In this document: piece after piece, positions 2,464 to 23,473 of the stretch | Layout of the letters: the number at the start of each line of letters is the position of its first letter | Position numbering within the stretch: the first letter of the stretch is position 1 | NCBI GenBank assembly: GCA_040396875.1 | Contig: JBBAWZ010000001.1 | Location: 110,198-174,197, forward strand | Direction of reading: 5' to 3' | From: Bacilli bacterium | GTDB taxonomy: Bacteria; Bacillota_I; Bacilli_A; RFN20; CAG-826 | Length of the DNA: 64,000 nucleotides | Program-made: the position numbers and the translations under genes | The notes under the pieces: generated by a model | Seen by the model: only the letters and a program-made list of their open reading frames with translations | The model's database searches: none | Told to the model about the DNA's origin: nothing

Positions 2464-3164
2464 AAACCCTACCGGTCTTTATTCTTAGACAAACACCTTA
2501 TCGAAATGCTGATTTAATTCTTACAGGATTATCACCTGAAGGTTATTTAACCATTCACGCAAGAGGGGCCCTTAAGATGACCTCACCATTTCAAGCGATG
2601 GTTTCTTTAGGGGCTTGGTCAGAGATAACCATCAATCAAAGTAAAGATAAAGCTTATTTAGAGAAGGCCAATCTAATTACTTTTGCACCATTGCCTGATC
2701 GTGAAGGTTTAATGGCTTCCCTTGTCATGCAAGTCATTCTACAAATTCTATTGCTCGATGAAGAAATTGATCATCCATCTGAAATTTATCAACGTTTGGT
2801 TGAGATCCGTCGCCATATGGATCTTGCTTTATCAAATTATCTGAAGTTTCTAATTCAATATCTAGACGACCAAGGTCTACCAATCATTGTGGATTATTGT
2901 GTAAATTGTCAAAATAAACTCAAAATTGTTGGAATTAATCCACAATTGGGTGGATTTATTTGTCAATCGTGTCTTCCTAAAGTTTCTGCAACGTTATTAT
3001 CAGCAGAATCGCTTAAACTTATGAGGAGTATTCGCCATAAAACCTATGCAGAAGCAATCAGTCCTTCCTTAACTAAAATGCTCATACCATTGGTTCACGA
3101 GCACTTTAACTTTCATTTGGATGTCCACGTAGAAGGTTTTAAAACCATTGAAAAAATAATGTAA
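2454..3164 (+). CDS. recO: DNA repair protein RecO (start uncertain, probably non-ATG)
   Basis: The track ORF starts at ATG 2577. The same frame stays open from 2436 and encodes KTLPVFILRQTPYRNADLILTGLSPEGYLTIHARGALK, the conserved RecO OB-fold N-terminus (compare B. subtilis ...EGIVLR...ARGARK). AAGGAG at 2443-2448 precedes ATT codons at 2454 and 2457. C-terminal Cys cluster CVNC...CQSC. Confidence 0.75.
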   Translation: MILKTLPVFILRQTPYRNADLILTGLSPEGYLTIHARGALKMTSPFQAMVSLGAWSEITINQSKDKAYLEKANLITFAPLPDREGLMASLVMQVILQILLLDEEIDHPSEIYQRLVEIRRHMDLALSNYLKFLIQYLDDQGLPIIVDYCVNCQNKLKIVGINPQLGGFICQSCLPKVSATLLSAESLKLMRSIRHKTYAEAISPSLTKMLIPLVHEHFNFHLDVHVEGFKTIEKIM

Positions 3165-3238: not shown

Positions 3239-4609
3239 ATGAATCCATTAACCTTTGAACAACTCGTCACTCATTTAACCAGTACAGGTTTTGTCTTTCA
3301 AGGATCTGAAATCTATGGGGGATTATCGAATACGTGGGATTATGGTCCTCTTGGGGTTGAACTCATTAATAATTTAAAAAAGACATGGTGGAAAAAATTT
3401 GTCCAAGAATCACCCATGAATATTGGTATCGATTCAGCTATTTTGATGAATCCAAGAGTTTGGGAAGCAACTGGCCACGTTGCCACTTTTAATGATCCTT
3501 TAGTTGATTGTAAAAATTGCAAAACCAGACACAGAGCAGACCAATTGATTGCTGCTGCTAGACCCAATTTAGATATTTCTAAAATACCAGCTCAGGCTTT
3601 AGGTACTGTCTTAAAAGATGAAAAAATTGCCTGTCCCAAATGTGGAAGTCATGATTTTACCGATATTCGACAATTCAATATGATGTTTAAAACCCACATT
3701 GGAGTTATTGAAGATGCCAAAACGGTTGTTTATCTTCGTCCTGAAACAGCCCAAGGGGTTTTTGTTAATTTTAAATCTATTCAACGCACCACTCGTAAAA
3801 AGGTGCCATTTGGTGTAGCAAGTGTTGGTAAAGCCTTTCGAAACGAAATCACACCAGGAAATTTTACATTTCGAACCAGAGAATTTTCACAAATGGAACT
3901 AGAATTTTTCTGTAAACCTGGTACAGAAGCATCCTGGTATAAATTTTGGCAAGAAGCTTGTATGCAATATTTATCGTCGCTTGGTATTCAAAGTAAGCAT
4001 TTAAGAATTCGAGAACATAGTCCAGAAGAATTAGCTTTCTATTCGAAAGGTACCTCTGATATTGAATATCAATTCCCATTTGGTTGGGGTGAAGTTTGGG
4101 GTATTGCATCTCGAACTGACTATGACTTAAAGCAACACATGCAATTTAGTAAAGAAGATTTACAATATCTTGATCCAGAAACAAACGAAAAATATATCCC
4201 ATATGTCATCGAACCATCTCTCGGTTTAGACCGGCTAGCACTGATGGTCTTAAGTGATGCATATCAAGAAGAAGTTTTAGAAAAAGACACACGTGTTGTT
4301 TTGAAGTTACACCCCGCCATTGCTCCCTATAAAATTGCGATCCTTCCATTGAGTAAACAACTCAATGAAAAATCGCAAGAAGTAATGACGATTTTATCAA
4401 AGCATTTTATGGTCACCTATGATGAGTCTGGTAGCATCGGAAAACGTTACCGTCGACAAGACATGATTGGTACACCTTATTGTGTGACGATTGACTTTGA
4501 ATCTCAAAATGATCAAAGTGTAACCATTCGTGAACGAGATTCTATGAAACAACTTAGAATGCCGATTGATGATTTAATTAGATATTTCAATGTTAAGTTA
4601 TTCTATTAG
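3239..4609 (+). CDS. glyQS: glycine--tRNA ligase (alpha2 type)
   Basis: 456 aa, class II aaRS motifs ([30 protein letters not shown]), recO-glyQS-dnaG-rpoD synteny. Confidence 0.95.
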
Positions 4610-4665
4610 TATTTATTTAGTACATATTTAGTAATTATATAAACTTTGGAAAGGAGGATACGTTC

Positions 4666-11804: not shown

Positions 11805-12362
11805 ATGGTCAATGCAACTGAATTGAGACCTGGTAACCACTTTGAATTTGAAAAGAATATCTATACGGTCATCGATGTTGGTTTAAACAAAACAGCGATG
11901 CGTAAGATGGTCGTCAAAGCCAAGGTTAAGAATCTACGAACTGGTTCGATTACAGAAATGTCATTTTTAGGTGGAACCGATGTTGAAAAAATCACCTTGG
12001 ATAAGCGTAAAATGACTTATTTGTATGAAGCAAATGGTAACTTGGTTTTTATGGATAAAATTTCTTTTGATCAATTAGAAATTACCAGAGAAAAATTAGC
12101 GTGGGAAGTCAATTTTTTAGTCACGGAACAAGAAATTGAAATCTTATTCTATGAAACAGAAATTTTAGGGGTTTCATTACCTGCTAAAGTTGCCTTAAAA
12201 GTCTCCGAATGTGAACCTGCTGTTAAAGGTGACACTATTAATAAGGCGATGAAAGAAGCGACCCTTGAAACTGGTTATAAGCTTCGCGTGCCTTTATTTA
12301 TTTCTGAAGGTGAAATCATCAGCATTCGTACGGAAGACGGAAGTTACGACGGTCGAGCTTAA
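11805..12362 (+). CDS. efp: elongation factor P
   Basis: 185 aa. N-terminus MVNATELRPGNHFEF... and KVKNLRTGS align to EF-P. AAGGAGGA Shine-Dalgarno sequence. Confidence 0.9.
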   Translation: MVNATELRPGNHFEFEKNIYTVIDVGLNKTAMRKMVVKAKVKNLRTGSITEMSFLGGTDVEKITLDKRKMTYLYEANGNLVFMDKISFDQLEITREKLAWEVNFLVTEQEIEILFYETEILGVSLPAKVALKVSECEPAVKGDTINKAMKEATLETGYKLRVPLFISEGEIISIRTEDGSYDGRA

Positions 12363-12599: not shown

Positions 12600-13286
12600 T
12601 TATTTAATTTTCTTTTTGAAGTCTAATTCTCTTCCAGCGAGTAATCGCTGGATATTTTCTTTATGGCGATAAACAAGTAAGAACCAGATTAGAAGGTTCG
12701 TTAATGTAAACAACCAACCGGATTGAACACCATTCCACATTCCCACTTCTGATAAAGCGGGAATCCATAAGAGCAAGGTTAAGCAAACGGCAAAAAGGTG
12801 ACCAAGAATGGAGCCAATCGATACAATCTTTTTAACCTTGATAATCGTCAGCATCATCGCTAGGCCAACCAAGGCAATGATCCAATTCGTCATCAACATA
12901 AATGACCCGGCTGAGGAAACAGCCTTGCCGCCTCTAAATTGGGCAAATATTGGATAGCAATGCCCAAGACCCGTTCCGATTCCCGTTAACATAATGGCCA
13001 GTTGACCTAAGAAGGGGTTTTGAGTGGCGAGGGACGTCCATTGAAAAACGAACATTGATGCAATCCACACAGGAAGAATACTTTTTGTTAAATCCATGAT
13101 AAAAACCAAGGTTGCGGCAAACTTTCCAAAATTTCGGTAAACATTGGTCATGCCACTTCCACCTGATCCAAGTTTTCTTACATCCTTTTGATAGAGTAAT
13201 TGGCCAATCCAGACTCCAGAAGGAATGGAGGCTAGCAAGTAGCCAATCAGCATTGGAACGAAGGTTAATGCGAGGTTTTGAATCAT
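12600..13286 (-). CDS. plsY: glycerol-3-phosphate acyltransferase PlsY
   Basis: 228 aa polytopic membrane protein with GSGGSGMTNVYR and GGKAV motifs, adjacent to parE-parC as in B. subtilis. Confidence 0.85.
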   Translation of the reverse strand: MIQNLALTFVPMLIGYLLASIPSGVWIGQLLYQKDVRKLGSGGSGMTNVYRNFGKFAATLVFIMDLTKSILPVWIASMFVFQWTSLATQNPFLGQLAIMLTGIGTGLGHCYPIFAQFRGGKAVSSAGSFMLMTNWIIALVGLAMMLTIIKVKKIVSIGSILGHLFAVCLTLLLWIPALSEVGMWNGVQSGWLFTLTNLLIWFLLVYRHKENIQRLLAGRELDFKKKIK

Positions 13287-13345: not shown

Positions 13346-15301
13346 ATGGCTAAAAATCAAAACTTAAATACATATAACGAAGATAGCATTGATGTACTGG
13401 AAGGCCTTGATGGGGTACGCAAACGTCCAGCCATGTATATTGGCTCAACCAATAGCATCGGTTTACATCACTTAGTTTGGGAAATCTTAGACAATGCCAT
13501 CGATGAAGCCTTATCTGGTTTTGGTGACACGATCACTCTTACCATTCATCAAGATGGATCTCTATCTGTAAAAGATGAAGGACGTGGTATCCCAGTTGGT
13601 ATTCAAAAACAAACGGGTAAGCCTGCTGTTGAAATCATCTTTTCAACGCTTCATAGCGGTGGTAAATTTTCAGATAAAAACTATGTTTCAAGCGCAGGTT
13701 TGCATGGTGTTGGTGCCTCGGTTACCAATGCATTGTCTGAATATGTTGACGTCATCGTTAATCGAGAAGGATTCAGCTATCATATTCGTTTTGAAAATGG
13801 TGGTAAGAAAATTGGTAAATTAGAAAAAGTTGGCAAGTCCAACAAGACAGGAACGCTCGTACGCTTCAAACCGGATCCTAAAGTCTTTAGCACGGTTGAA
13901 TTTAAATGGGAAACCATTATTGCCCACTTACAAGAATCAGCTTTTTTAATGAAAAAAGTAAGATTTATTGCCAAAGATGAACGTAGCAAAATGGAAGCAG
14001 AATATTACTATGAAGAAGGCTTAAAAGAATATATTGCTACCTTAAATGAAACCAAAGAAAAGATGCATCCAGTACTGGTTTTTGAAGATTTAACAGGTGA
14101 AATCAAAGTTGAAGTAGCGATGCAATATTGTTTACAGGACTATAACGAAAGTATTTATTCCTATGTAAATAACATTCGTACCAAAGATGGTGGTACGCAT
14201 GAAAATGGCTTCCGTGCCGGTTTAACTAGAGCCGTTAATGAATATGCCGACATCAATAATTTATTAAGAAATAAAGTAAAGTTAGAAGGTAGCGATATTC
14301 GTGAAGGACTTACGGCTATTATCTCCTTGAAGATTCCAGAAGGAAAACTTGAATTTGAAGGCCAAACCAAAGGCAAACTTGGCACACCGGACGCTTTAGC
14401 CTATGTCCAAAACATGATCCTTTCCAAGCTAACCTATTACCTTACAGAAAATAAAGATTTTGCCACCAACTTAATCAAAAAATGTGTCGATTCTCAAGCT
14501 GCAAGAATGGCAGCTCGTAAGGCAAAAGAAGAAGCGCGTGGAAACAAAAAACTACGTTCAGATACGTTGTTATCTGATAAACTAACACCGGCTCAAAGTA
14601 AAGAATATGCCTTAAATGAATTGTTTATAGTCGAAGGTGATTCTGCTGGTGGTACGGCTAAAAATGGTCGGGATCGATTGCACCAAGCCATCTTACCTTT
14701 ACGTGGTAAGCCATTAAATACCGATAGTTTAACGATGGAACAAATGTTAAAGAATACTGAATTTGCAACCTTAATTGCAACGATTGGTGCCGGTGTTGGT
14801 CCCGCTTTTGATATACAAGATTCTAAATACGGCAAAATTATTATAATGACTGACGCGGATACCGATGGCGCCCATATTCAAACGTTGTTATTAACCTTCT
14901 TTTATCATCACATGCGCCCCCTGATTCAAGCTGGAAAAGTTTACATTGCGATTCCACCCTTATATCGTGTCATGAATGAACAAAAGCCAACCCAATTTGT
15001 TTATGCATGGACCGAAGAAGAACTTGAATTAGGCAAAAAGAACGTCGGCTCACCTTATCGTATTTCACGTTATAAAGGTCTCGGTGAAATGAATGCATCG
15101 CAACTCAAAGAAACCACCATGGATCCAAAAACAAGAACTTTAATTCGCGTCAACATTGAAGATCCACTCATCGTCGAACGTCGCGTCGGTATCCTCATGG
15201 GTAAAGACCCGTCAGTTCGTCGCAAATGGGTTGAAGAAAATATCGACTTTACCATTCGTGAAGTAGTCGGAAAGGGAAAAGAAGATGGCAAAAAAATCTA
15301 A
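13346..15301 (+). CDS. parE: type IIA topoisomerase ATPase subunit, most likely topoisomerase IV ParE
   Basis: GHKL ATPase and TOPRIM motifs (LEGLDGVRKRPAMYIGST, EGDSAGG, DADTDGAHI). Called ParE rather than GyrB from plsY-parE-parC synteny and because the partner subunit lacks a GyrA box. Confidence 0.8.
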   Translation: MAKNQNLNTYNEDSIDVLEGLDGVRKRPAMYIGSTNSIGLHHLVWEILDNAIDEALSGFGDTITLTIHQDGSLSVKDEGRGIPVGIQKQTGKPAVEIIFSTLHSGGKFSDKNYVSSAGLHGVGASVTNALSEYVDVIVNREGFSYHIRFENGGKKIGKLEKVGKSNKTGTLVRFKPDPKVFSTVEFKWETIIAHLQESAFLMKKVRFIAKDERSKMEAEYYYEEGLKEYIATLNETKEKMHPVLVFEDLTGEIKVEVAMQYCLQDYNESIYSYVNNIRTKDGGTHENGFRAGLTRAVNEYADINNLLRNKVKLEGSDIREGLTAIISLKIPEGKLEFEGQTKGKLGTPDALAYVQNMILSKLTYYLTENKDFATNLIKKCVDSQAARMAARKAKEEARGNKKLRSDTLLSDKLTPAQSKEYALNELFIVEGDSAGGTAKNGRDRLHQAILPLRGKPLNTDSLTMEQMLKNTEFATLIATIGAGVGPAFDIQDSKYGKIIIMTDADTDGAHIQTLLLTFFYHHMRPLIQAGKVYIAIPPLYRVMNEQKPTQFVYAWTEEELELGKKNVGSPYRISRYKGLGEMNASQLKETTMDPKTRTLIRVNIEDPLIVERRVGILMGKDPSVRRKWVEENIDFTIREVVGKGKEDGKKI

Positions 15302-17843
15302 ACCTATTCCCAAACCAATTGTTGAAAAAATCAATGTTGCTCCACTTGAAGATATCATGGGCGAACGTTATGCAACGTATGCTAAATATGTCATTCAAGA
15401 TCGTGCCATTCCTGATTTAAGAGACGGATTAAAACCGGTTCAACGTCGTATTATTTATGCGATGTATCATTCCAATAACGTCTTTAGAAAACCCTATCGC
15501 AAAAGTGCAACGAGTGTTGGGGAAGTCATGGGTAAATATCACCCACACGGCGATGCATCCATTTATGACGCATTGGTCCACATGTCTCAACCATGGAAAT
15601 ATCGTGTTCCTTTAATCGACTTTCAAGGTAATAACGGATCCATCGATGGCGATAATGCTGCGGCGCATCGTTATACAGAAGTTCGTTTAGCCCAAATCAC
15701 CGAAGAACTGGTTCGTGATATTGACAAGAATACCGTCGATACACAATTAACCTTTGATGACTCTCAAGATGAACCCGTGGTCTTACCAGCACGTTTTCCT
15801 AATCTTTTAGTGAATGGAACACAAGGCATTGCAGTTGCCATGGCGACCAATATTCCTCCACACAATTTACGAGATGTCATTGATGCAGTCATTTATCGTT
15901 TGGGTCATAAAAAAGCAACCATTGAAGATCTTATTGATATCGTGAAGGGTCCTGATTTCCCAACAGGCGGCACCATCTATCGTACGGATTCTTTAAAACA
16001 AATCTATTTAACTGGCCACGGTCGCGTTGAAATTTTATCGAAAGCAGAGATTACCAAACTCAAAGGTTATCATCAAATTGTTATCAAAGAAATTCCATAT
16101 GGCGTGATTAAATCTGCACTTGTCAAACAAATGGATGAAATCCGTTTTAAGAAAATCATCGATGGCATTATCGAAGTACGCGATGAATCCGATCATCATG
16201 GTATGAGAATCGCCATCGATATTCGAGAAGATGCTAACCCTGAAAAAATCCTCCAATATTTTTATTCTAAAACCGATTTAAAGAGTTCTTTCTCTGCCAA
16301 CATGGTGGCGATTAATAAAGGCCACCCGATTACCTTTAATTTACTTCAATACGTCGATGCGTATATTGATCACCAAGTCGAAGTGATCACTAGACTTTCA
16401 AACTTTGATTTAGTCAAAGCATCTGCTCGTTTAGAAATTGTCGAAGGGCTCATCAAAGCGATTGGTATCTTAGATGAAGTGGTGAAAGTCATTCGCAAGA
16501 GTGAAGACAAGCAAGACGCAATGGCGAATTTAGAAAAGAAATTTGCTTTCACAAAATCTCAAGCAGACGCGATTGTATCGTTACAACTTTATCGCTTGAC
16601 CAACACAGATGTAACAACGTTAAAAGAAGAAGAAAAGCAATTAAAAGCGACGATTAAAGAACTCAAGGAAATTCTTGATGACCGAGAAGTCCTCAATAAA
16701 AAGATAATCAAAGATTTAAAATTGATTGCCAGTCAATATGGTCAAAATCGTTTAACCAAGATTGCAACGGAACCAAAAGAAACCTTACAAATTGATAAGC
16801 GAGATTTAATTGCCAAAGAAGATGTGTATATTTCCGTCACGCGAGATGGTTATATTAAACGGTCTCCATTGAAATCATATAAGAGTTCAGAAGGCGTATG
16901 GCCAGGCATTAAAGAAGCCGACTTATTGGTTGGAGTTGGACCTGCAACAACCTTAGATTACGTATTAGTGTTCACCCAACTTGGAAACTATTTATTCATT
17001 CCGATTCATGAACTTCAAGAAACCAAATGGAAAGATGAAGGTAAGCATATCAATTACCTCGTCAATCTCGGACCTGAAGAAAAGCTCATTAAAGCTTTGA
17101 TTGTCTCTGATTTTAAACCAGATGCTTTTGTGGTGATGGTGACACGAAACGGTCAATTAAAGAAAACCCCATTATCGGAATTCATGGTGCAACGATATAG
17201 TAAGCCTTTGACCTGTATGCGATTACTCGGTGATGACACGGTTGTCGATGTTGATATCACCAACGGTCAAGGTCAACTCTTGATTGCCACCTTAGAAGGT
17301 AACGTTACTTATTTCTCAGAAAAAGAAGTCAATCCTGTTGGGGTCAAAGCTGGTGGCGTCAAAGCCATTGCTTCCTTATTGGGTAAAGATCGATTAGCAA
17401 AGTTGTTAGTCTACCAACCCGAAGAACGTGGAAAAATCGTGATGTTTACACGTCAAGGAAACTTTAGAATCTTTGATATCAGTTATGTGGATCTCACTTC
17501 ACGTTTAGGTAAAGTTCAATACATTTTCCAAAGCTTTAAATCTGAACCGCATCAACTTGCCTATTGGCGAAAACTCAATAAACAAGATGAATTTTTGAAA
17601 GTAACCTTATTACTCTCAAACAAAGAATTGGTGAACTTGGAAACCAATGATTATGCTCCAACGCCAACCGATAAATATGCTAAGAAAAACATCTCTATGC
17701 CAAAGGGAACAGATGTTATTGGTGTTTATCATGATGCCATCACCCGCATTGATAACCAATATAAAACAGTAGCCCTACCCAAAGTTGATTTAGAAAATGG
17801 AGACAAAATAGAAAAAGTCTCCCTATTTGACGATAAGAAATAA
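15285..17843 (+). CDS. parC: type IIA topoisomerase DNA-cleavage subunit, most likely topoisomerase IV ParC
   Basis: RDGLKPVQRRIIYAM, YHPHGD, active-site AAHRYTEVRL. No QRRGGKG-type GyrA box after TRDGYIKRSPL. 17-nt overlap with parE. Confidence 0.8.
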   Translation: MAKKSKPIPKPIVEKINVAPLEDIMGERYATYAKYVIQDRAIPDLRDGLKPVQRRIIYAMYHSNNVFRKPYRKSATSVGEVMGKYHPHGDASIYDALVHMSQPWKYRVPLIDFQGNNGSIDGDNAAAHRYTEVRLAQITEELVRDIDKNTVDTQLTFDDSQDEPVVLPARFPNLLVNGTQGIAVAMATNIPPHNLRDVIDAVIYRLGHKKATIEDLIDIVKGPDFPTGGTIYRTDSLKQIYLTGHGRVEILSKAEITKLKGYHQIVIKEIPYGVIKSALVKQMDEIRFKKIIDGIIEVRDESDHHGMRIAIDIREDANPEKILQYFYSKTDLKSSFSANMVAINKGHPITFNLLQYVDAYIDHQVEVITRLSNFDLVKASARLEIVEGLIKAIGILDEVVKVIRKSEDKQDAMANLEKKFAFTKSQADAIVSLQLYRLTNTDVTTLKEEEKQLKATIKELKEILDDREVLNKKIIKDLKLIASQYGQNRLTKIATEPKETLQIDKRDLIAKEDVYISVTRDGYIKRSPLKSYKSSEGVWPGIKEADLLVGVGPATTLDYVLVFTQLGNYLFIPIHELQETKWKDEGKHINYLVNLGPEEKLIKALIVSDFKPDAFVVMVTRNGQLKKTPLSEFMVQRYSKPLTCMRLLGDDTVVDVDITNGQGQLLIATLEGNVTYFSEKEVNPVGVKAGGVKAIASLLGKDRLAKLLVYQPEERGKIVMFTRQGNFRIFDISYVDLTSRLGKVQYIFQSFKSEPHQLAYWRKLNKQDEFLKVTLLLSNKELVNLETNDYAPTPTDKYAKKNISMPKGTDVIGVYHDAITRIDNQYKTVALPKVDLENGDKIEKVSLFDDKK

Positions 17844-19512: not shown

Positions 19513-19799
19513 CAACCAAACAACGATTATATTTAAGAAAACTAGGGCAAACCTTACCCACCAAATATCAAGTAGGTAAAGATACGGTGCATCCTGAACT
19601 CATTCAATTATTAGAATTAGCCTTAACCAAAAATGAATTGATTAAGGTCCACCTTTTAAAATCTTCTCAAACGGATGCAGATAACTTTTTACCCAAATTA
19701 GTGAAAACCCTAAAAGCAGAACTCGTCCAAACGATTGGGCATCGCGTGATTCTTTATCGGCCTCATCCAACGAACCCAAGGATTCAATTACCAACATGA
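19509..19799 (+). CDS. yhbY: CRM-domain RNA-binding protein YhbY/YqeI
   Basis: 96 aa, KQRLYLRKLGQTLPTKYQVGKDTV...GHRVILYR pattern, position between yqeH and nadD. Confidence 0.8.
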   Translation: MTTKQRLYLRKLGQTLPTKYQVGKDTVHPELIQLLELALTKNELIKVHLLKSSQTDADNFLPKLVKTLKAELVQTIGHRVILYRPHPTNPRIQLPT

Positions 19800-20893
19800 T
19801 TCGCTTACTTTACGGTTCCCCATTTGATCCCATTCACCATGGTCATCTTGCGATGCTAAAAGCAGCTCAAACCCATATTCGCGCTGATGAAGTGACGTTG
19901 ATTATTACGAAGAATCCAAGATGGAAAAATGTTAACACAAATATTTTGGATCGTATTAATATGGTGAAACTTGCGATTGCCAATGATCCTTCTTTTCAAT
20001 TATCTTTATATGAAGTTGAAAAAGATGCCGTGATTAACTTTACCATCCACACCGTTCAACACTTCAAACAACTTTATCCTAACGATCAACTCTACTACCT
20101 CATCGGTGGTGATCAAGTTGAACAGTTTCATAAATGGAAAGATGCGGATAAATTAAAAACCTTCGTCCAACTGATTGCCTACCCTCGTCCTGGATCGTCC
20201 TTGGATCACCCAAATTGGCAACGCTATGGCATTCAAAAAATGTCAGGGCCCCTTTATCCGGTTTCCTCAACCAGCATTCGAAATTTAGAATCTTTAGCAA
20301 CACCCTTACCCGTGATTCAATACATCTTTCAACATCAATTGTATTTCGTTCCCAAGTTAAAAGCCTTTTATCAACCTGAACGTTTTGAACATGTTTATTC
20401 AACGGCCTCCCTTGCATATGATATCGCCCTACAAAACCAACAATCCCCTACCGATGCTTTCTTAGCCGCGATCCTTCATGACATAGCCAAAGATATGGAT
20501 GAAGAAGACGCCCGATCGTTGCTAGATGAATATGATACGGTCAATCAACCGGTGGAAAGTTATGCTTTACATCAATTTGTTGGCGCGATTCTCGCTCGGC
20601 AAGAGTTCAATATTAAACAAGATGGAATTTTAGAAGCGATTCGATATCACACCACTGGGAAAGCACAAATGGGACCGCTTGCACAAATTGTCTATGCTGC
20701 AGATAAAATTGAACCCACCCGTGGATATGATTCCAGTGCGCTGATTGCGGCATGCAAAAAACAATACCATGAAGGGTTCTTGATGGTGTTAAAAGAAAAC
20801 CTATTACACCTTAAGAAAAAGAAACACAAAATAACCAATCATTTAGTCAAAGAATGTATGGAATATTATTTAGGAGAAACTGATGGCAAATAA
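19796..20893 (+). CDS. nadD: fusion protein: nicotinate-nucleotide adenylyltransferase NadD (N-terminal) and HD-domain YqeK (C-terminal)
   Basis: N-terminus GSPFDPIHHGHL and SSTSIR (nucleotidyltransferase). C-terminal half has AILHDIAK and YHTTG...ADKIEPTRG (HD hydrolase, YqeK-like). One uninterrupted 365-aa frame. Confidence 0.8.
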   Translation: MIRLLYGSPFDPIHHGHLAMLKAAQTHIRADEVTLIITKNPRWKNVNTNILDRINMVKLAIANDPSFQLSLYEVEKDAVINFTIHTVQHFKQLYPNDQLYYLIGGDQVEQFHKWKDADKLKTFVQLIAYPRPGSSLDHPNWQRYGIQKMSGPLYPVSSTSIRNLESLATPLPVIQYIFQHQLYFVPKLKAFYQPERFEHVYSTASLAYDIALQNQQSPTDAFLAAILHDIAKDMDEEDARSLLDEYDTVNQPVESYALHQFVGAILARQEFNIKQDGILEAIRYHTTGKAQMGPLAQIVYAADKIEPTRGYDSSALIAACKKQYHEGFLMVLKENLLHLKKKKHKITNHLVKECMEYYLGETDGK

Positions 20894-21218
20894 ATCTTTA
20901 AAAACACTCGTTCTTTCTATCCTTGAAGACAAGCAAGCAGAAGAGATCAAAATCTATAATGTAAAAGGTAAATCGCCGATAACGGATTTTGTCATCGTCG
21001 CGTCGGCGAATAACTTTAGAAAACTAGATGCGATTATTAATCAACTTCGTAAGGATTTTATTCATCACCCAAAATACAAAGTTCATCACATTGAAGGTAA
21101 GCCAGAATCAGGTTGGATGGTGTTTGACCTCTATGATGTCGTTATTCACTTATTTGATCCGGCAAACCGTGAGAAGATGAAGTTGGATGAAATCTTGGAA
21201 AACCAAGTCAAAGCTTAG
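20883..21218 (+). CDS. rsfS: ribosome silencing factor RsfS
   Basis: 111 aa, TDFVIVASANNFRKLDAI...EGKPESGWMVFDLYDVVIHLF pattern, last gene of the yqe cluster. Confidence 0.85.
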   Translation: MANKSLKTLVLSILEDKQAEEIKIYNVKGKSPITDFVIVASANNFRKLDAIINQLRKDFIHHPKYKVHHIEGKPESGWMVFDLYDVVIHLFDPANREKMKLDEILENQVKA

Positions 21219-21236
21219 TAAGTTCGAAAACACTCT

Positions 21237-21264
21237 ACTTCGTATAATGTCTATTATGTTAACC
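21237..21264. other. dif: chromosome dimer resolution site dif (XerC/XerD target)
   Basis: ACTTCGTATAA-TGTCTA-TTATGTTAACC. By my count it is 22/28 identical to B. subtilis dif (ACTTCCTAGAATATATATTATGTAAACT) and 21/28 to E. coli dif (GGTGCGCATAATGTATATTATGTTAAAT), both from memory. XerD arm matches 9/11. It lies in the only large convergent intergenic region, at the + to - strand switch, 1.3 kb from xerD. Confidence 0.7.
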
Positions 21265-21381
21265 AAGTACTCAAATATGCTTATTTCATTGGGATTTAGA
21301 ATCAATTACGCAACGTATAATCAAAAGATTCAAATGATATTTATACTGACTTATCCACATGATTTATCTACTAAATTACTA

Positions 21382-22569
21382 CTAATTTAGAATCTCTAAA
21401 ATAGGTTTGCCGATTTGGTGTTTGGGTTGTTTGAGGTCGAAATTCTTAAGAATCGTACTCGACAAGTCGGCGAAGGTTGATCTTTCTTCTATGTTTTTTC
21501 CTTTGTTAAATTGTGGACTAAACATGATCAACGGAACCCGTTCACGAGTATGGTCAGTTCCAGTATGGGTTGGATCGTTTCCGTGGTCAGCAGTAATCAC
21601 TAATAAATCATCCTTTTTTATCAAGGGTAAAAGCTTACCTAATTGTTGGTCAAATTGTTCAATCGCTTTGCCATATCCTAAGGGGTCGCGGCGATGACCA
21701 AATTCGGAGTCAAATTCGACGAGGTTAATGAACGCTAAACCTTGGAAGTTTCTATGGGTCTCGGCAATCGTCTTTTCCATACCATCCTGGTTAGAGATTG
21801 TCTTTTGGGTTCGATTGACACCTTGACCATTAAATATGTCATTGATTTTACCAATGCAACTCGTGGTCAATCCAGCATCATGTAGAATATCCAATGCAGT
21901 ATGGAGACCAGGCGATAAAGCATAATCATGACGATTAGAGGTTCGTTTAAAGGTGTTGGCGTTTGCACCAATAAAAGGTCGGGCGATGATTCGACCCAAT
22001 AGATATTCTGGTTTCATGCAGATCTCACGCGCTGCTTCACAAATTCGATAAAGTTCTTTTAAAGGAATGACTTCCTCATGGGCCGCTAATTGCAGCACAC
22101 TGTCAGCGGAAGTATACAGGATAACTTTTTTCGTCCGCATGTGTTCTTCACCTAATTGTTTGATGATTTCAGTTCCACTTGCAGCCACGTTACCAATGAA
22201 TTGATGCCCAGTTTTTTGGGTGAGTTCTTCGATTAAGGCTTTTGGAAATCCATTGTCAGTGAAGGTTTTAAATGGTTTTTTGGTTTCTAAACCCATCAAC
22301 TCCCAATGCCCTGTCATGGTATCTTTTCCTGCGGATATTTCCCGCATGGTGGTGACATAGCTTTGAGGGTGTATTACTTTTTTAACACCAGGAATCGGTG
22401 ATAAATCCGCTAATCCTAAGGATTCTAAAAAAGGAATCTTTAAACCACCACAGCGTTGGGCGGTATGTAAAAAAGTATGGGTGCCTACATCACCAAAACG
22501 ATCCGCGTCGGGTAGCGCCCCCATGCCGACTGAATCCATCACAACGACAAAAATTCTTTTAAATTTCAT
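21382..22569 (-). CDS. deoB: phosphopentomutase
   Basis: 395 aa. MKFKRIFVVVMDSVGMG N-terminus, DHGNDPT and TDHTRE metal-site motifs. Confidence 0.9.
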   Translation of the reverse strand: MKFKRIFVVVMDSVGMGALPDADRFGDVGTHTFLHTAQRCGGLKIPFLESLGLADLSPIPGVKKVIHPQSYVTTMREISAGKDTMTGHWELMGLETKKPFKTFTDNGFPKALIEELTQKTGHQFIGNVAASGTEIIKQLGEEHMRTKKVILYTSADSVLQLAAHEEVIPLKELYRICEAAREICMKPEYLLGRIIARPFIGANANTFKRTSNRHDYALSPGLHTALDILHDAGLTTSCIGKINDIFNGQGVNRTQKTISNQDGMEKTIAETHRNFQGLAFINLVEFDSEFGHRRDPLGYGKAIEQFDQQLGKLLPLIKKDDLLVITADHGNDPTHTGTDHTRERVPLIMFSPQFNKGKNIEERSTFADLSSTILKNFDLKQPKHQIGKPILEILN

Positions 22570-22588: not shown

Positions 22589-23473
22589 TTACTTTCTTTT
22601 GGTGTATAAATCAAAGGCAGATAGGATTCTTTTTTCCGAAACATGCGTATAAATTTGGGTTGTAGATAAATGCGTATGACCTAACATCTCTTGAACCGCC
22701 CTTAAAGAAGCACCTTGTTCGAGTAAATGGGTGGCAAAGGAATGGCGAAGGGTATGGGGTGAAATAGAACTTTGAATCCCCACTTGTGCGGCATATTGTT
22801 TAATCCGCTTAAAAAAGAATTGTCGAGATAAGGGTTTTGCATAACGACTAATAAATAAATAAGGACTTTCCTCTTTAGGGTTGATAAACCGACGTTTTTC
22901 TAAATAGGCTTTGACTTGTTGTAAGGCATATTCCCCAATCGGGACTAGACGCGTTTTTTGACCCTTCCCAACAATGCGGATGGTAGCCTTGAGTACATTG
23001 ATATCGGCTTGCTTTAACTGAATCAGTTCTGACACTCTTAGTCCACTGGCATACATCACTTCCATCATCGCTTGATCTCTTAATCCATCCAAGGTTTCAA
23101 TATTGGGCGCGTTGAGTAAAGCTTCCATCTCTTCGGGTCGGATAACCTTGGGTAAAGACTTCATCATTTTAGGAGGCTTTACGGGAAGAATCGTTTGGGT
23201 AAAATGACCCTCTCTTTGTAAATATAAAAAGAAATTTTTGACGGTCGATAATCGACGATGAAGGGTGCTACTATTCATCCCTAACTTTGCCTGAAAGGTA
23301 ATGAAGTCTTTTAAATCAAAACTTTGTAAATCTTCTTGGACTTCTTTGGGGGGCGAAAAAGATAACGTAAACATCATCAAATCATGTCGGTAACTTTCTA
23401 AGGTTTTCTTTGATAAACCTTTTTCAATTACCAGGGTATTTAAGTATTGATCAATGAGTTCTGAAACTTTCAT
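22589..23473 (-). CDS. xerD: tyrosine recombinase XerD
   Basis: 294 aa with the catalytic R...HxxR...Y set (SGLRVSEL, HTLRHSFATHLLEQGASLRAVQEMLGH, TQIYTHV). Next to deoB as with B. subtilis ripX-drm. Confidence 0.85.
   Translation of the reverse strand: MKVSELIDQYLNTLVIEKGLSKKTLESYRHDLMMFTLSFSPPKEVQEDLQSFDLKDFITFQAKLGMNSSTLHRRLSTVKNFFLYLQREGHFTQTILPVKPPKMMKSLPKVIRPEEMEALLNAPNIETLDGLRDQAMMEVMYASGLRVSELIQLKQADINVLKATIRIVGKGQKTRLVPIGEYALQQVKAYLEKRRFINPKEESPYLFISRYAKPLSRQFFFKRIKQYAAQVGIQSSISPHTLRHSFATHLLEQGASLRAVQEMLGHTHLSTTQIYTHVSEKRILSAFDLYTKRK

What the first reader, a model, noticed from the sequence alone, without database searches (positions are those of the whole stretch)
21219..21381. 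Classical 28-bp dif site exactly at the coding-strand switch: the window probably spans the replication terminus
Every gene from 7 to 21218 is on the + strand except plsY. Every gene from 21382 to 64000 is on the - strand except rnhC. The 163-bp AT-rich spacer where the two blocks converge contains ACTTCGTATAA-TGTCTA-TTATGTTAACC (21237-21264). It has the 11-6-11 architecture of XerC/XerD dif sites. By my count it matches B. subtilis dif at 22/28 and E. coli dif at 21/28 (both recalled from memory), with the XerD arm at 9/11. The xerD gene is only 1.3 kb away, with deoB between. Close linkage of recombinase gene and site resembles the single-recombinase XerS/difSL and XerH/difH arrangements, although this site is of the classical type. 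No hairpin terminator is visible for either converging transcription unit.
Basis: partly seen in the sequence, partly recalled or inferred. Interest (0 to 1): 0.6.

Follow-up and report, generated by a model that had tools for sequence, protein, structure and literature searches.

The report
Terminus dif site with phased DnaA-box module
The 28-base sequence is very probably the real site (dif) where XerC/XerD enzymes unlink daughter chromosomes at the replication end-point of an uncultured small-genome Bacilli bacterium, which is ordinary; less ordinary is that dif here, and in dozens of related genomes, is followed at a helically phased distance by a DnaA-box motif and a short row of CTACTAA repeats that I found described in no paper.

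Summary
ACTTCGTATAA-TGTCTA-TTATGTTAACC lies at 21237-21264 in the convergent rsfS|deoB gap. It is the best genome-wide match to B. subtilis dif (22/28) and E. coli dif (21/28).

It is single-copy and almost invariant in 12 of 17 genus relatives, while the flanking spacer DNA is scrambled. The genome encodes XerD (1.3 kb away), XerC (after topA) and an FtsK with a gamma domain. Cumulative gene orientation on the 279-kb contig peaks exactly in this gap.

dnaA is on another contig, so "opposite oriC" cannot be tested directly. In a single-contig genome of the same family with the same synteny (G175), dif lies 48.5% of the circle from dnaA. In 7 of 7 other complete chromosomes carrying this motif it lies 43-50% away. 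Nucleotide skew is weak and not independent of coding strand.

An unexpected feature lies on the XerD-arm side. A perfect DnaA box (21351-21359) and two CTACTAA repeats (21368-21385) sit on an 11-bp lattice counted from dif. In about 64 genomes the dif-to-box offset falls only at about 102, 114 or 125 bp. The function of this module is unknown.

Verdict: an ordinary dif site at the terminus, carrying an apparently unpublished, phase-locked accessory module.

The parts
21237..21264 (+). dif core. The putative XerC arm is ACTTCGTATAA (21237-21247), the central hexamer is TGTCTA (21248-21253), and the putative XerD arm is TTATGTTAACC (21254-21264).
   Evidence: Best genome-wide match to both reference dif sites; single copy; 26 of 28 columns invariant in the genus. 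Variation among relatives is concentrated in the central hexamer and in positions 7, 24 and 28. Assignment of the arms to XerC and XerD is by analogy with E. coli and B. subtilis dif (established knowledge).
21265..21350 (.). Variable spacer of 86 bp. Its sequence is not conserved but its length is constrained.
   Evidence: Spacers cannot be aligned between genera, yet the dif-to-box offset is confined to 101-104, 112-115(117) or 122-125 bp. Several relatives have a bidirectional hairpin terminator here. The window copy has none.
21351..21359 (+). DnaA-box-like 9-mer TTATCCACA, starting 114 bp after the start of dif, on the XerD-arm side.
   Evidence: The same 9-mer occurs four times around dnaA at this genome's oriC. 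It is present in the same orientation next to dif in 41 of 136 loci of the first sample and in 26 of 30 modules of a second sample. The background is 0.015 per locus.
21368..21385 (+). Two direct CTACTAA repeats with an 11-bp period (21368-21374 and 21379-21385). The second contains the deoB stop codon (21382-21384 on the - strand).
   Evidence: TACTAA copies start at 132, 143, 154, 165 ... bp from dif (0 mod 11) across genera. The strict box+repeat pattern is single-copy in 31 of the 34 genomes of the order that have it, and the reversed control gave 1 hit in 151 genomes.
20883..21218 (+). rsfS (ribosome silencing factor), the last gene of the + strand block. Its stop is TAG-TAA inside TTAGTAA, 18 bp before dif.
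   Evidence: (TIGR00090, 84 bits). rsfS or nadD-yqeK lies on the XerC-arm side of dif in many relatives.
21382..22569 (-). deoB (phosphopentomutase), the first gene of the - strand block.
   Evidence: NF003766, 534 bits; synteny.
22589..23473 (-). xerD (tyrosine recombinase, 294 aa), 1.3 kb from dif.
   Evidence: the best model is XerD TIGR02225 at 319.6 bits, just under its 329.6 cut-off; the PRK00283 subfamily model is over its cut-off. Pfam integrase and SAM-like N-terminal domains. R...HxxR...H...Y residues present.
4606..4633 (+). Second array of the same repeat family: TTAGTA x3 with an 11-bp period, between the glyQS stop (TAG at 4607-4609) and the dnaG start (4666). It has no DnaA box and lies 16.6 kb from dif in the opposite orientation to the dif-side array.
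   Evidence: Conserved in the genus (G002, G003, G005, G010) and in another genus of the family (G019).
13346..17843 (+). parE-parC (topoisomerase IV), 3.4-7.9 kb from dif. This is context only and is not shown to be part of the system.
   Evidence: The same parE-parC...rsfS-dif synteny is seen in the closed genome G175.

Best explanation
The 28-mer at 21237-21264 is the chromosomal dif site of this bacterium. By analogy with the E. coli and B. subtilis systems, XerC binds the left arm and XerD the right arm, and two synapsed dif sites on a dimeric chromosome are recombined across the 6-bp central region. The reaction is activated at the division septum by the FtsK translocase through its gamma domain. 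These mechanistic steps are inferred and not shown here. The site lies at the replication terminus, where the two co-oriented gene blocks of the replichores meet. In this lineage dif is the first element of a conserved composite of about 150 bp: dif, a spacer of constrained length, a DnaA box, and a short CTACTAA array on an 11-bp lattice. The most likely reading is that this is a protein-bound DNA module held on the same helical face as the Xer complex, with DnaA at the box and an unidentified protein on the repeats. I cannot decide whether it helps or gates recombination, marks or insulates the terminus, or reports completion of replication to DnaA.
For: Sequence class and uniqueness: with the reference string verified. 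Conservation as an island in scrambled intergenic DNA, single copy, changes mainly in the central hexamer. Partner proteins: XerD; XerC after topA; FtsK with alpha, motor and gamma domains. Terminus: cumulative gene orientation peaks in this gap and the AT-skew maximum is here. The same motif lies 43-50% of the circle from dnaA in 7 of 7 complete chromosomes. It lies 48.5% away in G175, a single-contig genome of the same family with the same synteny. Module: the box offset is phased (Rayleigh R = 0.89-0.90 at an 11-bp period, reached in 0 of 20,000 uniform-null trials). This was replicated on a sample chosen without reference to dif (26 of 30 modules; offsets 101-103, 112-117, 122). The module is single-copy in the order. 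TTATCCACA is this organism's own oriC box. Extra box copies occur in either orientation in some loci.
Against: There is no experimental evidence of binding or recombination. The assembly is a MAG of 16 contigs, 86% complete, so a second dif or another strand switch on missing sequence cannot be excluded, and the position relative to oriC is indirect. Nucleotide skew is weak, and GC3 skew shows no replichore signal beyond gene strand. The GAAGAAG polarity flip at dif (80:18) is confounded with coding strand. For the module, the three spacing classes could reflect few ancestral indels, and my tree was too small to count events. Two-copy TACTAA pairs are only about 1.6-fold enriched over a reversed control. 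Box+array units also occur without dif at the plsY 3' end in two genomes. So the unit is not strictly an appendage of dif.
Confidence: 0.9

Rival explanations
1. The 28-mer is a dif-like target of a different recombination system, not the chromosome's dimer-resolution site. It could be an attachment site or scar of an integrative element that exploits Xer (IMEX), or the target of the third tyrosine recombinase encoded on the same contig.
For: A third XerA/XerC-like recombinase (307 aa) is encoded at C1:3758-4249. IMEX elements integrate at dif (established knowledge).
Against: There is only one copy of the site per genome and no duplicated dif flanking an insert. The position between the same housekeeping genes is fixed across families. 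The site lies opposite dnaA in closed genomes. The third recombinase is 127 kb away.
Confidence: 0.03
2. The 28-mer is a transcription signal and resembles dif only by AT-rich chance. It could be the operator of a regulator that binds the TATAA(T)...ATTAT inverted repeat, or a promoter (it contains TATAAT).
For: The sequence contains a perfect -10 hexamer and an inverted repeat.
Against: It lies between the 3' ends of two converging genes, so it has nothing to drive or regulate. The promoter scan finds no -35/-10 pair here. The identical pattern marks the point opposite dnaA in phyla as distant as Gemmatimonadota. Its conservation pattern, with fixed arms and a free central hexamer, is that of a Xer core site.
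Confidence: 0.02
3. dif is real, but the box+repeat unit beside it has nothing to do with Xer. It is a protein-roadblock or insulator element that ends convergent transcription units, or a terminus-domain mark comparable to matS or Ter sites. Its constant distance from dif is a by-product of a compact intergenic layout.
For: The unit always abuts the 3' end of the converging gene, whatever that gene is. Box+array copies without dif sit at the 3' end of plsY, a gene opposed to the local flow, in G167 and G179. An array alone sits at the glyQS stop. Ten extra arrays lie within 25 kb of dif against 0.5 expected. The window copy has no hairpin terminator.
Against: A by-product would not give offsets restricted to steps of one helical turn with unalignable spacers. 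Only 1-3 such units exist per genome although there are many convergent junctions. Array orientation relative to the incoming transcript is not constant (G036). No RTP homologue was found.
Confidence: 0.3

Closest known systems
Chromosomal dif with XerC/XerD (E. coli) and with CodV/RipX (B. subtilis), activated by FtsK or SpoIIIE
   Same: A 28-bp site with 11-6-11 architecture, 22/28 identical to B. subtilis dif. Relatives' variants carry an XerD arm TTATGTAAACT identical to that of B. subtilis. One copy per chromosome, at the terminus. Two paralogous recombinases, with xerC after topA as I recall for B. subtilis codV, plus an FtsK with a gamma domain.
   Different: xerD is linked to dif (1.3 kb here; dif-...-deoB-xerD across a large clade), whereas Kono et al. 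2011 found xerD genes mostly near the origin. dif also carries a phased DnaA box and repeat array that is not described for these model sites.
Plasmid Xer sites with accessory sequences (cer of ColE1, psi of pSC101)
   Same: A Xer core site joined to roughly 100-200 bp of adjacent DNA in which a protein-binding box lies about 100 bp from the core at a helically critical distance (my knowledge of ArgR/PepA at cer and ArcA/PepA at psi).
   Different: Those accessory sequences lie on the XerC side and bind ArgR, ArcA and PepA. Here the module is on the XerD side, the box is a DnaA box, the site is chromosomal, and FtsK is present.
Non-origin DnaA-box sites (E. coli datA, DARS1/2; B. subtilis DnaA-box clusters) and the oriC basal unwinding system (DnaA boxes plus DnaA-trios)
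   Same: A consensus DnaA box outside oriC, sometimes doubled. CTACTA reads as two 3'-GAT-5' trios on the complementary strand.
   Different: Usually there is a single box. The repeats are not adjacent to the box (8-31 nt away) and are interrupted every 11 bp, so they are not a continuous trio run as the BUS definition requires (PMC8287927). The location is the terminus and not the origin.
Rok of B. subtilis (winged-helix nucleoid protein preferring AACTA/TACTA) and the RTP/Ter fork trap
   Same: The repeat core TACTA(A) is Rok's preferred 5-mer (PMC6212790). I recall that B. subtilis Ter sites contain ACTAA/TACTAAAT-like cores, and that Rok partners with DnaA. The arrays cluster around the terminus as Ter sites do.
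   Different: No RTP homologue was found. Presence of a Rok homologue was not tested, and that family is known only from Bacillus relatives. The 11-bp head-to-tail lattice is unlike the 16-bp A/B arrangement of Ter that I recall.
Single-recombinase systems XerS/difSL and XerH/difH
   Same: Genetic linkage of a recombinase gene with its site.
   Different: Those use one atypical recombinase directly adjacent to an atypical site. Here the site is classical, two recombinases exist, and deoB lies between xerD and dif.

Membership tests
Classical chromosomal dif (XerC/XerD type) | A 28-bp site with two 11-bp arms in imperfect inverted repeat around a 6-bp centre, similar to experimentally verified dif sites | tested here: met
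   22/28 to B. subtilis dif and 21/28 to E. coli dif, the best hit in the genome. The reference string was verified in PMC3025954.
Classical chromosomal dif (XerC/XerD type) | One copy per chromosome | tested here: met
   One hit in G000 and one per genome in relatives, with a reversed control of 0. One per record in 120 records. Caveat: the assembly is 86% complete.
Classical chromosomal dif (XerC/XerD type) | Located at the replication terminus, roughly opposite oriC, in this genome | tested here: inconclusive
   dnaA and its DnaA-box cluster are on contig C5. The gene-orientation maximum is exactly at the site, and the AT-skew maximum is at the site while the GC-skew plateau is broad. GC3 skew is uninformative.
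Classical chromosomal dif (XerC/XerD type) | Located opposite oriC in closed genomes that carry the same site and synteny | tested here: met
   G175 (single contig of 1,061,998 bp, same family, parE-parC...rsfS-dif...deoB-xerD): 48.5% of the circle from dnaA. Seven other complete chromosomes: 43-50%.
Classical chromosomal dif (XerC/XerD type) | Genome encodes both XerC and XerD with catalytic R-H-R-H-Y residues | tested here: met
   XerD scores 319.6 bits on TIGR02225 and XerC 324.9 bits on TIGR02224. Each is just under its equivalog cut-off, and both are over the PRK00283 subfamily cut-off. Catalytic residues are aligned.
Classical chromosomal dif (XerC/XerD type) | FtsK/SpoIIIE translocase with a gamma domain | tested here: met
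   An 820-aa ORF at C1:63489-65951 has FtsK_alpha, FtsK_SpoIIIE and FtsK_gamma (35.5 bits against a 30.6 cut-off).
Classical chromosomal dif (XerC/XerD type) | Polar KOPS/SRS-type words converging on the site | tested here: inconclusive
   GAAGAAG is 80:18 in the leading-strand sense and flips at dif, but this is confounded with coding strand. GAGAAGGG and GGGNAGGG are essentially absent.
Classical chromosomal dif (XerC/XerD type) | XerC/XerD binding and strand exchange at the site | not testable with these tools
   Needs purified proteins or genetics.
Single-recombinase Xer systems (XerS/difSL, XerH/difH) | One atypical recombinase encoded next to an atypical site, with no XerC/XerD pair | tested here: not met
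   The XerS model scores 119 bits against a cut-off of 267. Separate XerC and XerD exist, and the site is of the classical type.
Plasmid-type Xer site with accessory sequences (cer/psi) | Accessory DNA on the XerC side bound by ArgR/ArcA and PepA; FtsK-independent resolution | tested here: not met
   The module is on the XerD-arm side in all loci examined. The box is a DnaA box, and FtsK-gamma is present. The functional part is not testable here.
oriC basal unwinding system (DnaA boxes plus DnaA-trios) | DnaA box or boxes directly adjacent to a continuous run of 3'-GAT-5' trios, at the origin | tested here: not met
   The definition comes from PMC8287927. Here the box-to-repeat gap is 8-31 nt and variable, the repeats have an 11-bp period and not 3 bp, and the locus is at the terminus. 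The true oriC on C5 does have boxes followed by a TTA/TCA trio-like run.
RTP/Ter replication fork trap | An RTP homologue is encoded; Ter sites occur in two opposed groups around the terminus | tested here: not met
   The best PF02334 hit is 13.3 bits, below the cut-off. The arrays do cluster near dif, but 9 of 10 extra arrays share one orientation on both sides.
Rok-type nucleoid protein sites | TACTA/AACTA-rich sites and a Rok homologue in the genome | not tested
   The motif preference is confirmed from PMC6212790. I could not obtain a Rok sequence to search with (one search failed).

The most novel reading that the evidence does not exclude
In a large clade of small-genome Bacilli the dimer-resolution site is not a bare 28-mer. 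It is the anchor of a terminus nucleoprotein module. The replication initiator DnaA binds a box held 9, 10 or 11 helical turns from the dif centre on the XerD side, next to a head-to-tail array bound by an unidentified protein. This complex would physically interact with XerCD/FtsK, gating or assisting recombination, or signalling that the terminus has been replicated. That would link the start and the end of the chromosome cycle.
Probability: 0.3. Interest if true: 0.85.

Novelty: new variant of a known kind. Interest (0 to 1): 0.55.

Why it matters
The dif call itself is routine, but it is useful. It fixes the terminus of an uncultured freshwater Bacilli lineage that has no closed genome, and it shows that xerD-deoB-dif linkage is conserved across a wide clade. 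The composite module matters more. Chromosomal dif sites are thought to need no accessory DNA, because FtsK supplies the control. A DnaA box kept in helical register with dif across dozens of genera would therefore be an unexpected physical link between the initiator and the termination and segregation machinery. It is directly testable with footprinting and phase-shift mutants. My full-text searches found no description of it. Other agents of this scan noted the same or similar arrangements in other genomes, which makes a one-off artefact unlikely but is not independent proof.

Tried and rejected
1. Third-codon-position GC and AT skew, regressed on gene strand and replichore side, to find a replication-only breakpoint. 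There was no signal at dif or anywhere convincing, so skew cannot carry the terminus claim here.
2. KOPS/SRS words. GAGAAGGG and GGGNAGGG are absent. GAAGAAG and other purine-rich words flip at dif, but they track coding strand. CTACTAA is not a genome-wide polar word.
3. RTP/Ter. No RTP homologue was found.
4. Origin-like BUS. The definition is not met.
5. Structured RNA. There is no Rfam hit and no stable fold.
6. "TTAGTA is just the local stop-codon context". TAG is the rarest stop (14%), and only 7 of 117 TAG genes end in TTAGTA.
7. A tree of NadD-YqeK proteins to count independent changes of spacing class. Only 12 proteins were recovered, one class was missing and the resolution was poor, so the phasing statistics carry a phylogenetic caveat.
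8. A conserved neighbouring gene as candidate binder. The neighbours of the module differ (deoB, ABC permease, PemK/MazF-like, PlsY) and none is an obvious DNA binder.
9. Fetching a Rok sequence from plasmid pLS20 to search for homologues. The accession is not in the collection.
10. A module at the plsY 3' end in the window itself. It is absent, because two converging ORFs abut directly there.

Full report
**1. The observation**

The sequence ACTTCGTATAA-TGTCTA-TTATGTTAACC is at window 21237-21264, in the 163-bp gap between rsfS (20883-21218, +) and deoB (21382-22569, -). xerD (22589-23473, -) follows deoB. The window is C1:110198-174197 of a 942,941-bp assembly in 16 contigs, 86% complete.

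I scanned both strands of the whole assembly. The site is the best match to B. subtilis dif (22/28, next best 19) and to E. coli dif (21/28, next best 20). The promoter/terminator scan finds nothing in the gap. Neither strand of the spacer folds better than shuffled sequence. The remark about missing terminators therefore holds for this copy.

**2. The site is under selection and unique**

With up to 3 mismatches the 28-mer occurs exactly once in 12 of 17 same-genus MAGs (0-1 changes) and once in three genomes of other genera in the order. The reversed control gave no hit. In every genus member it sits between rsfS and deoB-xerD.

I aligned the intergenic regions of 12 genus members. Twenty-six of the 28 columns are invariant, while the surrounding spacer cannot be aligned.

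A degenerate pattern (ACTTCGYATAATNNNTATTATGTWAACY) hit at least 120 records in the species-level genome collection, once in each. These include named Lactobacillaceae, Enterococcaceae, Trichococcus, heliobacteria, many uncultured Bacilli and Erysipelotrichales MAGs, and Gemmatimonadota. The positions I left free in the central hexamer (13-15) vary freely, which fits a Xer core site.

**3. Partner proteins**

- The 294-aa protein next to deoB scores best on the XerD model. It scores 319.6 bits, just under the equivalog cut-off of 329.6 and above the Xer subfamily cut-off.
- A 303-aa protein directly after topA on contig C3 scores best on the XerC model, at 324.9 bits.
- Both have the SAM-like N-terminal and catalytic domains and the R...HxxR...H...Y residues.
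- The XerS model scores far below its cut-off for both.
- A third, more distant recombinase lies at C1:3758-4249.
- An 820-aa FtsK with alpha, motor and gamma domains is at C1:63489-65951.

**4. Is it the terminus?**

On contig C1, a simple ORF-based gene set gives 66 + and 6 - genes from 40 to 120 kb, and 1 + and 29 - genes from 140 to 180 kb. Cumulative orientation peaks between rsfS and deoB. Cumulative AT skew peaks in the same 5-kb bin. Cumulative GC skew rises to 125 kb, plateaus, and falls after 175 kb. Third-position skew regressed on gene strand and side shows no independent replichore signal. Skew is therefore weak evidence here.

dnaA lies on contig C5, with four perfect TTATCCACA boxes around it. 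The position opposite oriC cannot be measured in this assembly. Two proxies are strong.

- In seven complete or single-contig chromosomes that carry the pattern, its one copy lies 49.6, 44.1, 48.4, 48.4, 49.0, 43.1 and 45.6% of the circle from dnaA (coordinates).
- G175 is a single contig of 1,061,998 bp from the window's own family. It has parE-parC-...-nadD/yqeK-rsfS-dif at 719,220, then deoB-xerD, and dnaA at 203,776-205,092. That is 48.5% of the circle.

I conclude that the window spans the terminus, with a probability of about 0.9.

**5. Linkage with xerD**

Among the 120 fetched loci, 39 have a XerD-like gene and 26 have deoB within the 8-kb block. The typical order is rsfS (or nadD-yqeK) - dif - 0 to 3 genes - deoB - xerD. 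The linkage is therefore conserved across a broad clade of reduced-genome Bacilli. Kono et al. reported xerD genes mostly near the origin, so this placement is lineage-specific. It does not make the system XerS- or XerH-like.

**6. The unexpected part**

The alignment shows a second conserved block beside the deoB stop: TTATCCACA (21351-21359), then CTACTAA-N4-CTACTAA (21368-21385).

- TTATCCACA is the DnaA-box consensus (my knowledge) and is this organism's own oriC box.
- Across the loci fetched for dif, TTWTCCACA lies in the same orientation on the XerD-arm side in 41 of 136. The background is 0.015 per locus.
- The offset from the start of dif takes only the values 101-104, 113-115 or 123-125.
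- For 29 representatives with less than 60% spacer identity, the Rayleigh statistic peaks at a period of 11 bp (R = 0.89). It is never reached in 20,000 uniform-null trials. The result is the same with the window's genus collapsed to one entry.
- Centre to centre, these offsets are about 93.5, 104.5 and 115.5 bp, or about 9, 10 and 11 turns of 10.5 bp.
- The TACTAA copies start at 132, 143, 154, 165 ... bp, on the same lattice.
- About 11 further loci have a degenerate box (for example TTTCCCACA) with the same repeats.

**7. Replication and specificity**

The strict pattern TCCACA-N5-35-TACTAA-N5-TACTAA, which makes no reference to dif, hits 34 of 151 genomes of the order. It hits once in 31 of them, and the reversed control gave 1 hit. 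Of 30 such modules fetched, 26 have a dif-like site upstream. The 23 non-redundant offsets are 101-103, 112-115, 117 (two cases, with a double box) and 122, with none in between.

The module always lies in a convergent gap, whatever gene is on the right. Eighteen named Lactobacillales and other genomes with the same dif core have no box within 190 bp.

**8. The repeat family elsewhere**

- The genome has one other array, TTAGTA x3 at 4606-4633, between the glyQS stop and the dnaG start. It is conserved in the genus and in G019.
- Two-copy pairs alone are only about 1.6-fold enriched over a reversed control.
- In genomes where dif is placed, 10 extra arrays lie within 25 kb of dif against 0.5 expected. 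Nine of them are in the orientation opposite to the dif-side array, on either side of dif.
- G036 and G026 have arrays on both sides of dif.
- In G167 and G179 a second box+array unit without dif sits at the 3' end of plsY, about 9 kb away. The window has none there.

**9. What the module is not, and what it may be**

It is not any of the following:
- a BUS-type origin element;
- an Rfam RNA;
- an RTP/Ter system with a recognisable RTP;
- a stop-codon context effect;
- a genome-wide polar word.

Three readings remain.
- (a) An accessory nucleoprotein complex acting with XerCD/FtsK. The phasing favours this reading.
- (b) A terminus-domain, insulator or roadblock element. Supporting points are the arrays at gene 3' ends, the clustering round dif, the dif-less copies and the missing hairpin here.
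- (c) A DnaA-regulatory site whose copy number doubles only at termination.

Rok of B. subtilis prefers TACTA/AACTA (PMC6212790) and, as I recall, partners with DnaA. This makes a Rok-like winged-helix protein a reasonable candidate for the array binder. I could not test whether one is present.

**10. Earlier notes of this scan**

I read these after finding the module. They report the same TTAGTAG/DnaA-box/dif arrangement in gut Bacilli (e1-746023, e1-746024, e1-3089545), and DnaA-box-like repeats at fixed distances from dif in Gemmatimonadota and others (e1-2207026, e1-5269521, e1-5239217).

My own partial check on Gemmatimonadota found an 8/9 box 33-71 bp from the start of dif on the XerD side in 5 of 10 loci. 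These notes are leads. They agree with what I measured here but are not independent proof. Full-text searches found no published description.

**11. Verdict**

The finding is correct and, as a dif site, ordinary: a new member of a well-known kind. The phase-locked DnaA-box/CTACTAA module attached to it makes the locus a new variant and worth an experiment.

Noticed in passing
window 4606-4633: TTAGTA x3 with an exact 11-bp period lies between the glyQS stop (its TAG is inside the first repeat) and the dnaG start. It belongs to the same repeat family as the array beside dif, is in the opposite orientation, has no DnaA box, and is conserved in the genus and in another genus of the family.
   Followed up: partly
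window 13346-17843, 22589-23473; C1:63489-65951: Chromosome-segregation genes lie near the terminus. parE-parC are 3.4-7.9 kb left of dif, xerD is 1.3 kb right of it, and ftsK is 65.5 kb away on the same contig. The parE-parC...rsfS-dif synteny is kept in the closed genome G175.
   Followed up: partly
G000 C1:3758-4249 (outside the window; L005 1453-2376): There is a third tyrosine recombinase (307 aa). Its best model is the archaeal XerA-type, below the cut-off, and it has a hydrophobic N-terminal segment. Its target is unknown.
   Followed up: no
L175 (G167) 11887-11958; L176 (G179) 3103-3140: Second DnaA-box + TACTAA-array units, with no dif-like site nearby, sit at the 3' end of plsY about 9 kb from dif on the XerC side. 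The window has no such unit at its plsY (12600-13286), where two converging ORFs abut with no spacer.
   Followed up: partly
L032, L071 (ORFs starting about 170 bp after dif, - strand): In several relatives the gene abutting the module encodes a 174-221-aa protein with a PemK/MazF-like toxin domain and an N-terminal extension. There is no such gene next to dif in the window.
   Followed up: no
L076, L124, L126, L131, L028 (Gemmatimonadota loci): DnaA-box-like 9-mers (8/9 or 9/9) lie 33-71 bp from the start of dif on the XerD side in 5 of 10 Gemmatimonadota loci with the same dif core. None was found in 18 named Lactobacillales and other genomes.
   Followed up: partly
window 19796-20893: nadD and yqeK are fused in one 365-aa frame (NCBIfam PRK07152, plus separate NadD and YqeK models on the two halves). 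The fused gene is the usual left neighbour of rsfS-dif in relatives.
   Followed up: partly
contig C1 as a whole: Replication-associated nucleotide skew is almost absent once gene strand is accounted for. The visible AT and GC skew tracks coding strand. Beyond 180 kb the gene-strand bias weakens, and the first 40 kb of C1 (across a scaffold gap at 18.4 kb) have the opposite AT skew.
   Followed up: no
window 21213-21219: rsfS ends TAG-TAA within TTAGTAA, a single copy of the repeat word, 18 bp before dif. In G026 and G036 a full TTAGTA array occupies the corresponding place on the XerC side.
   Followed up: partly
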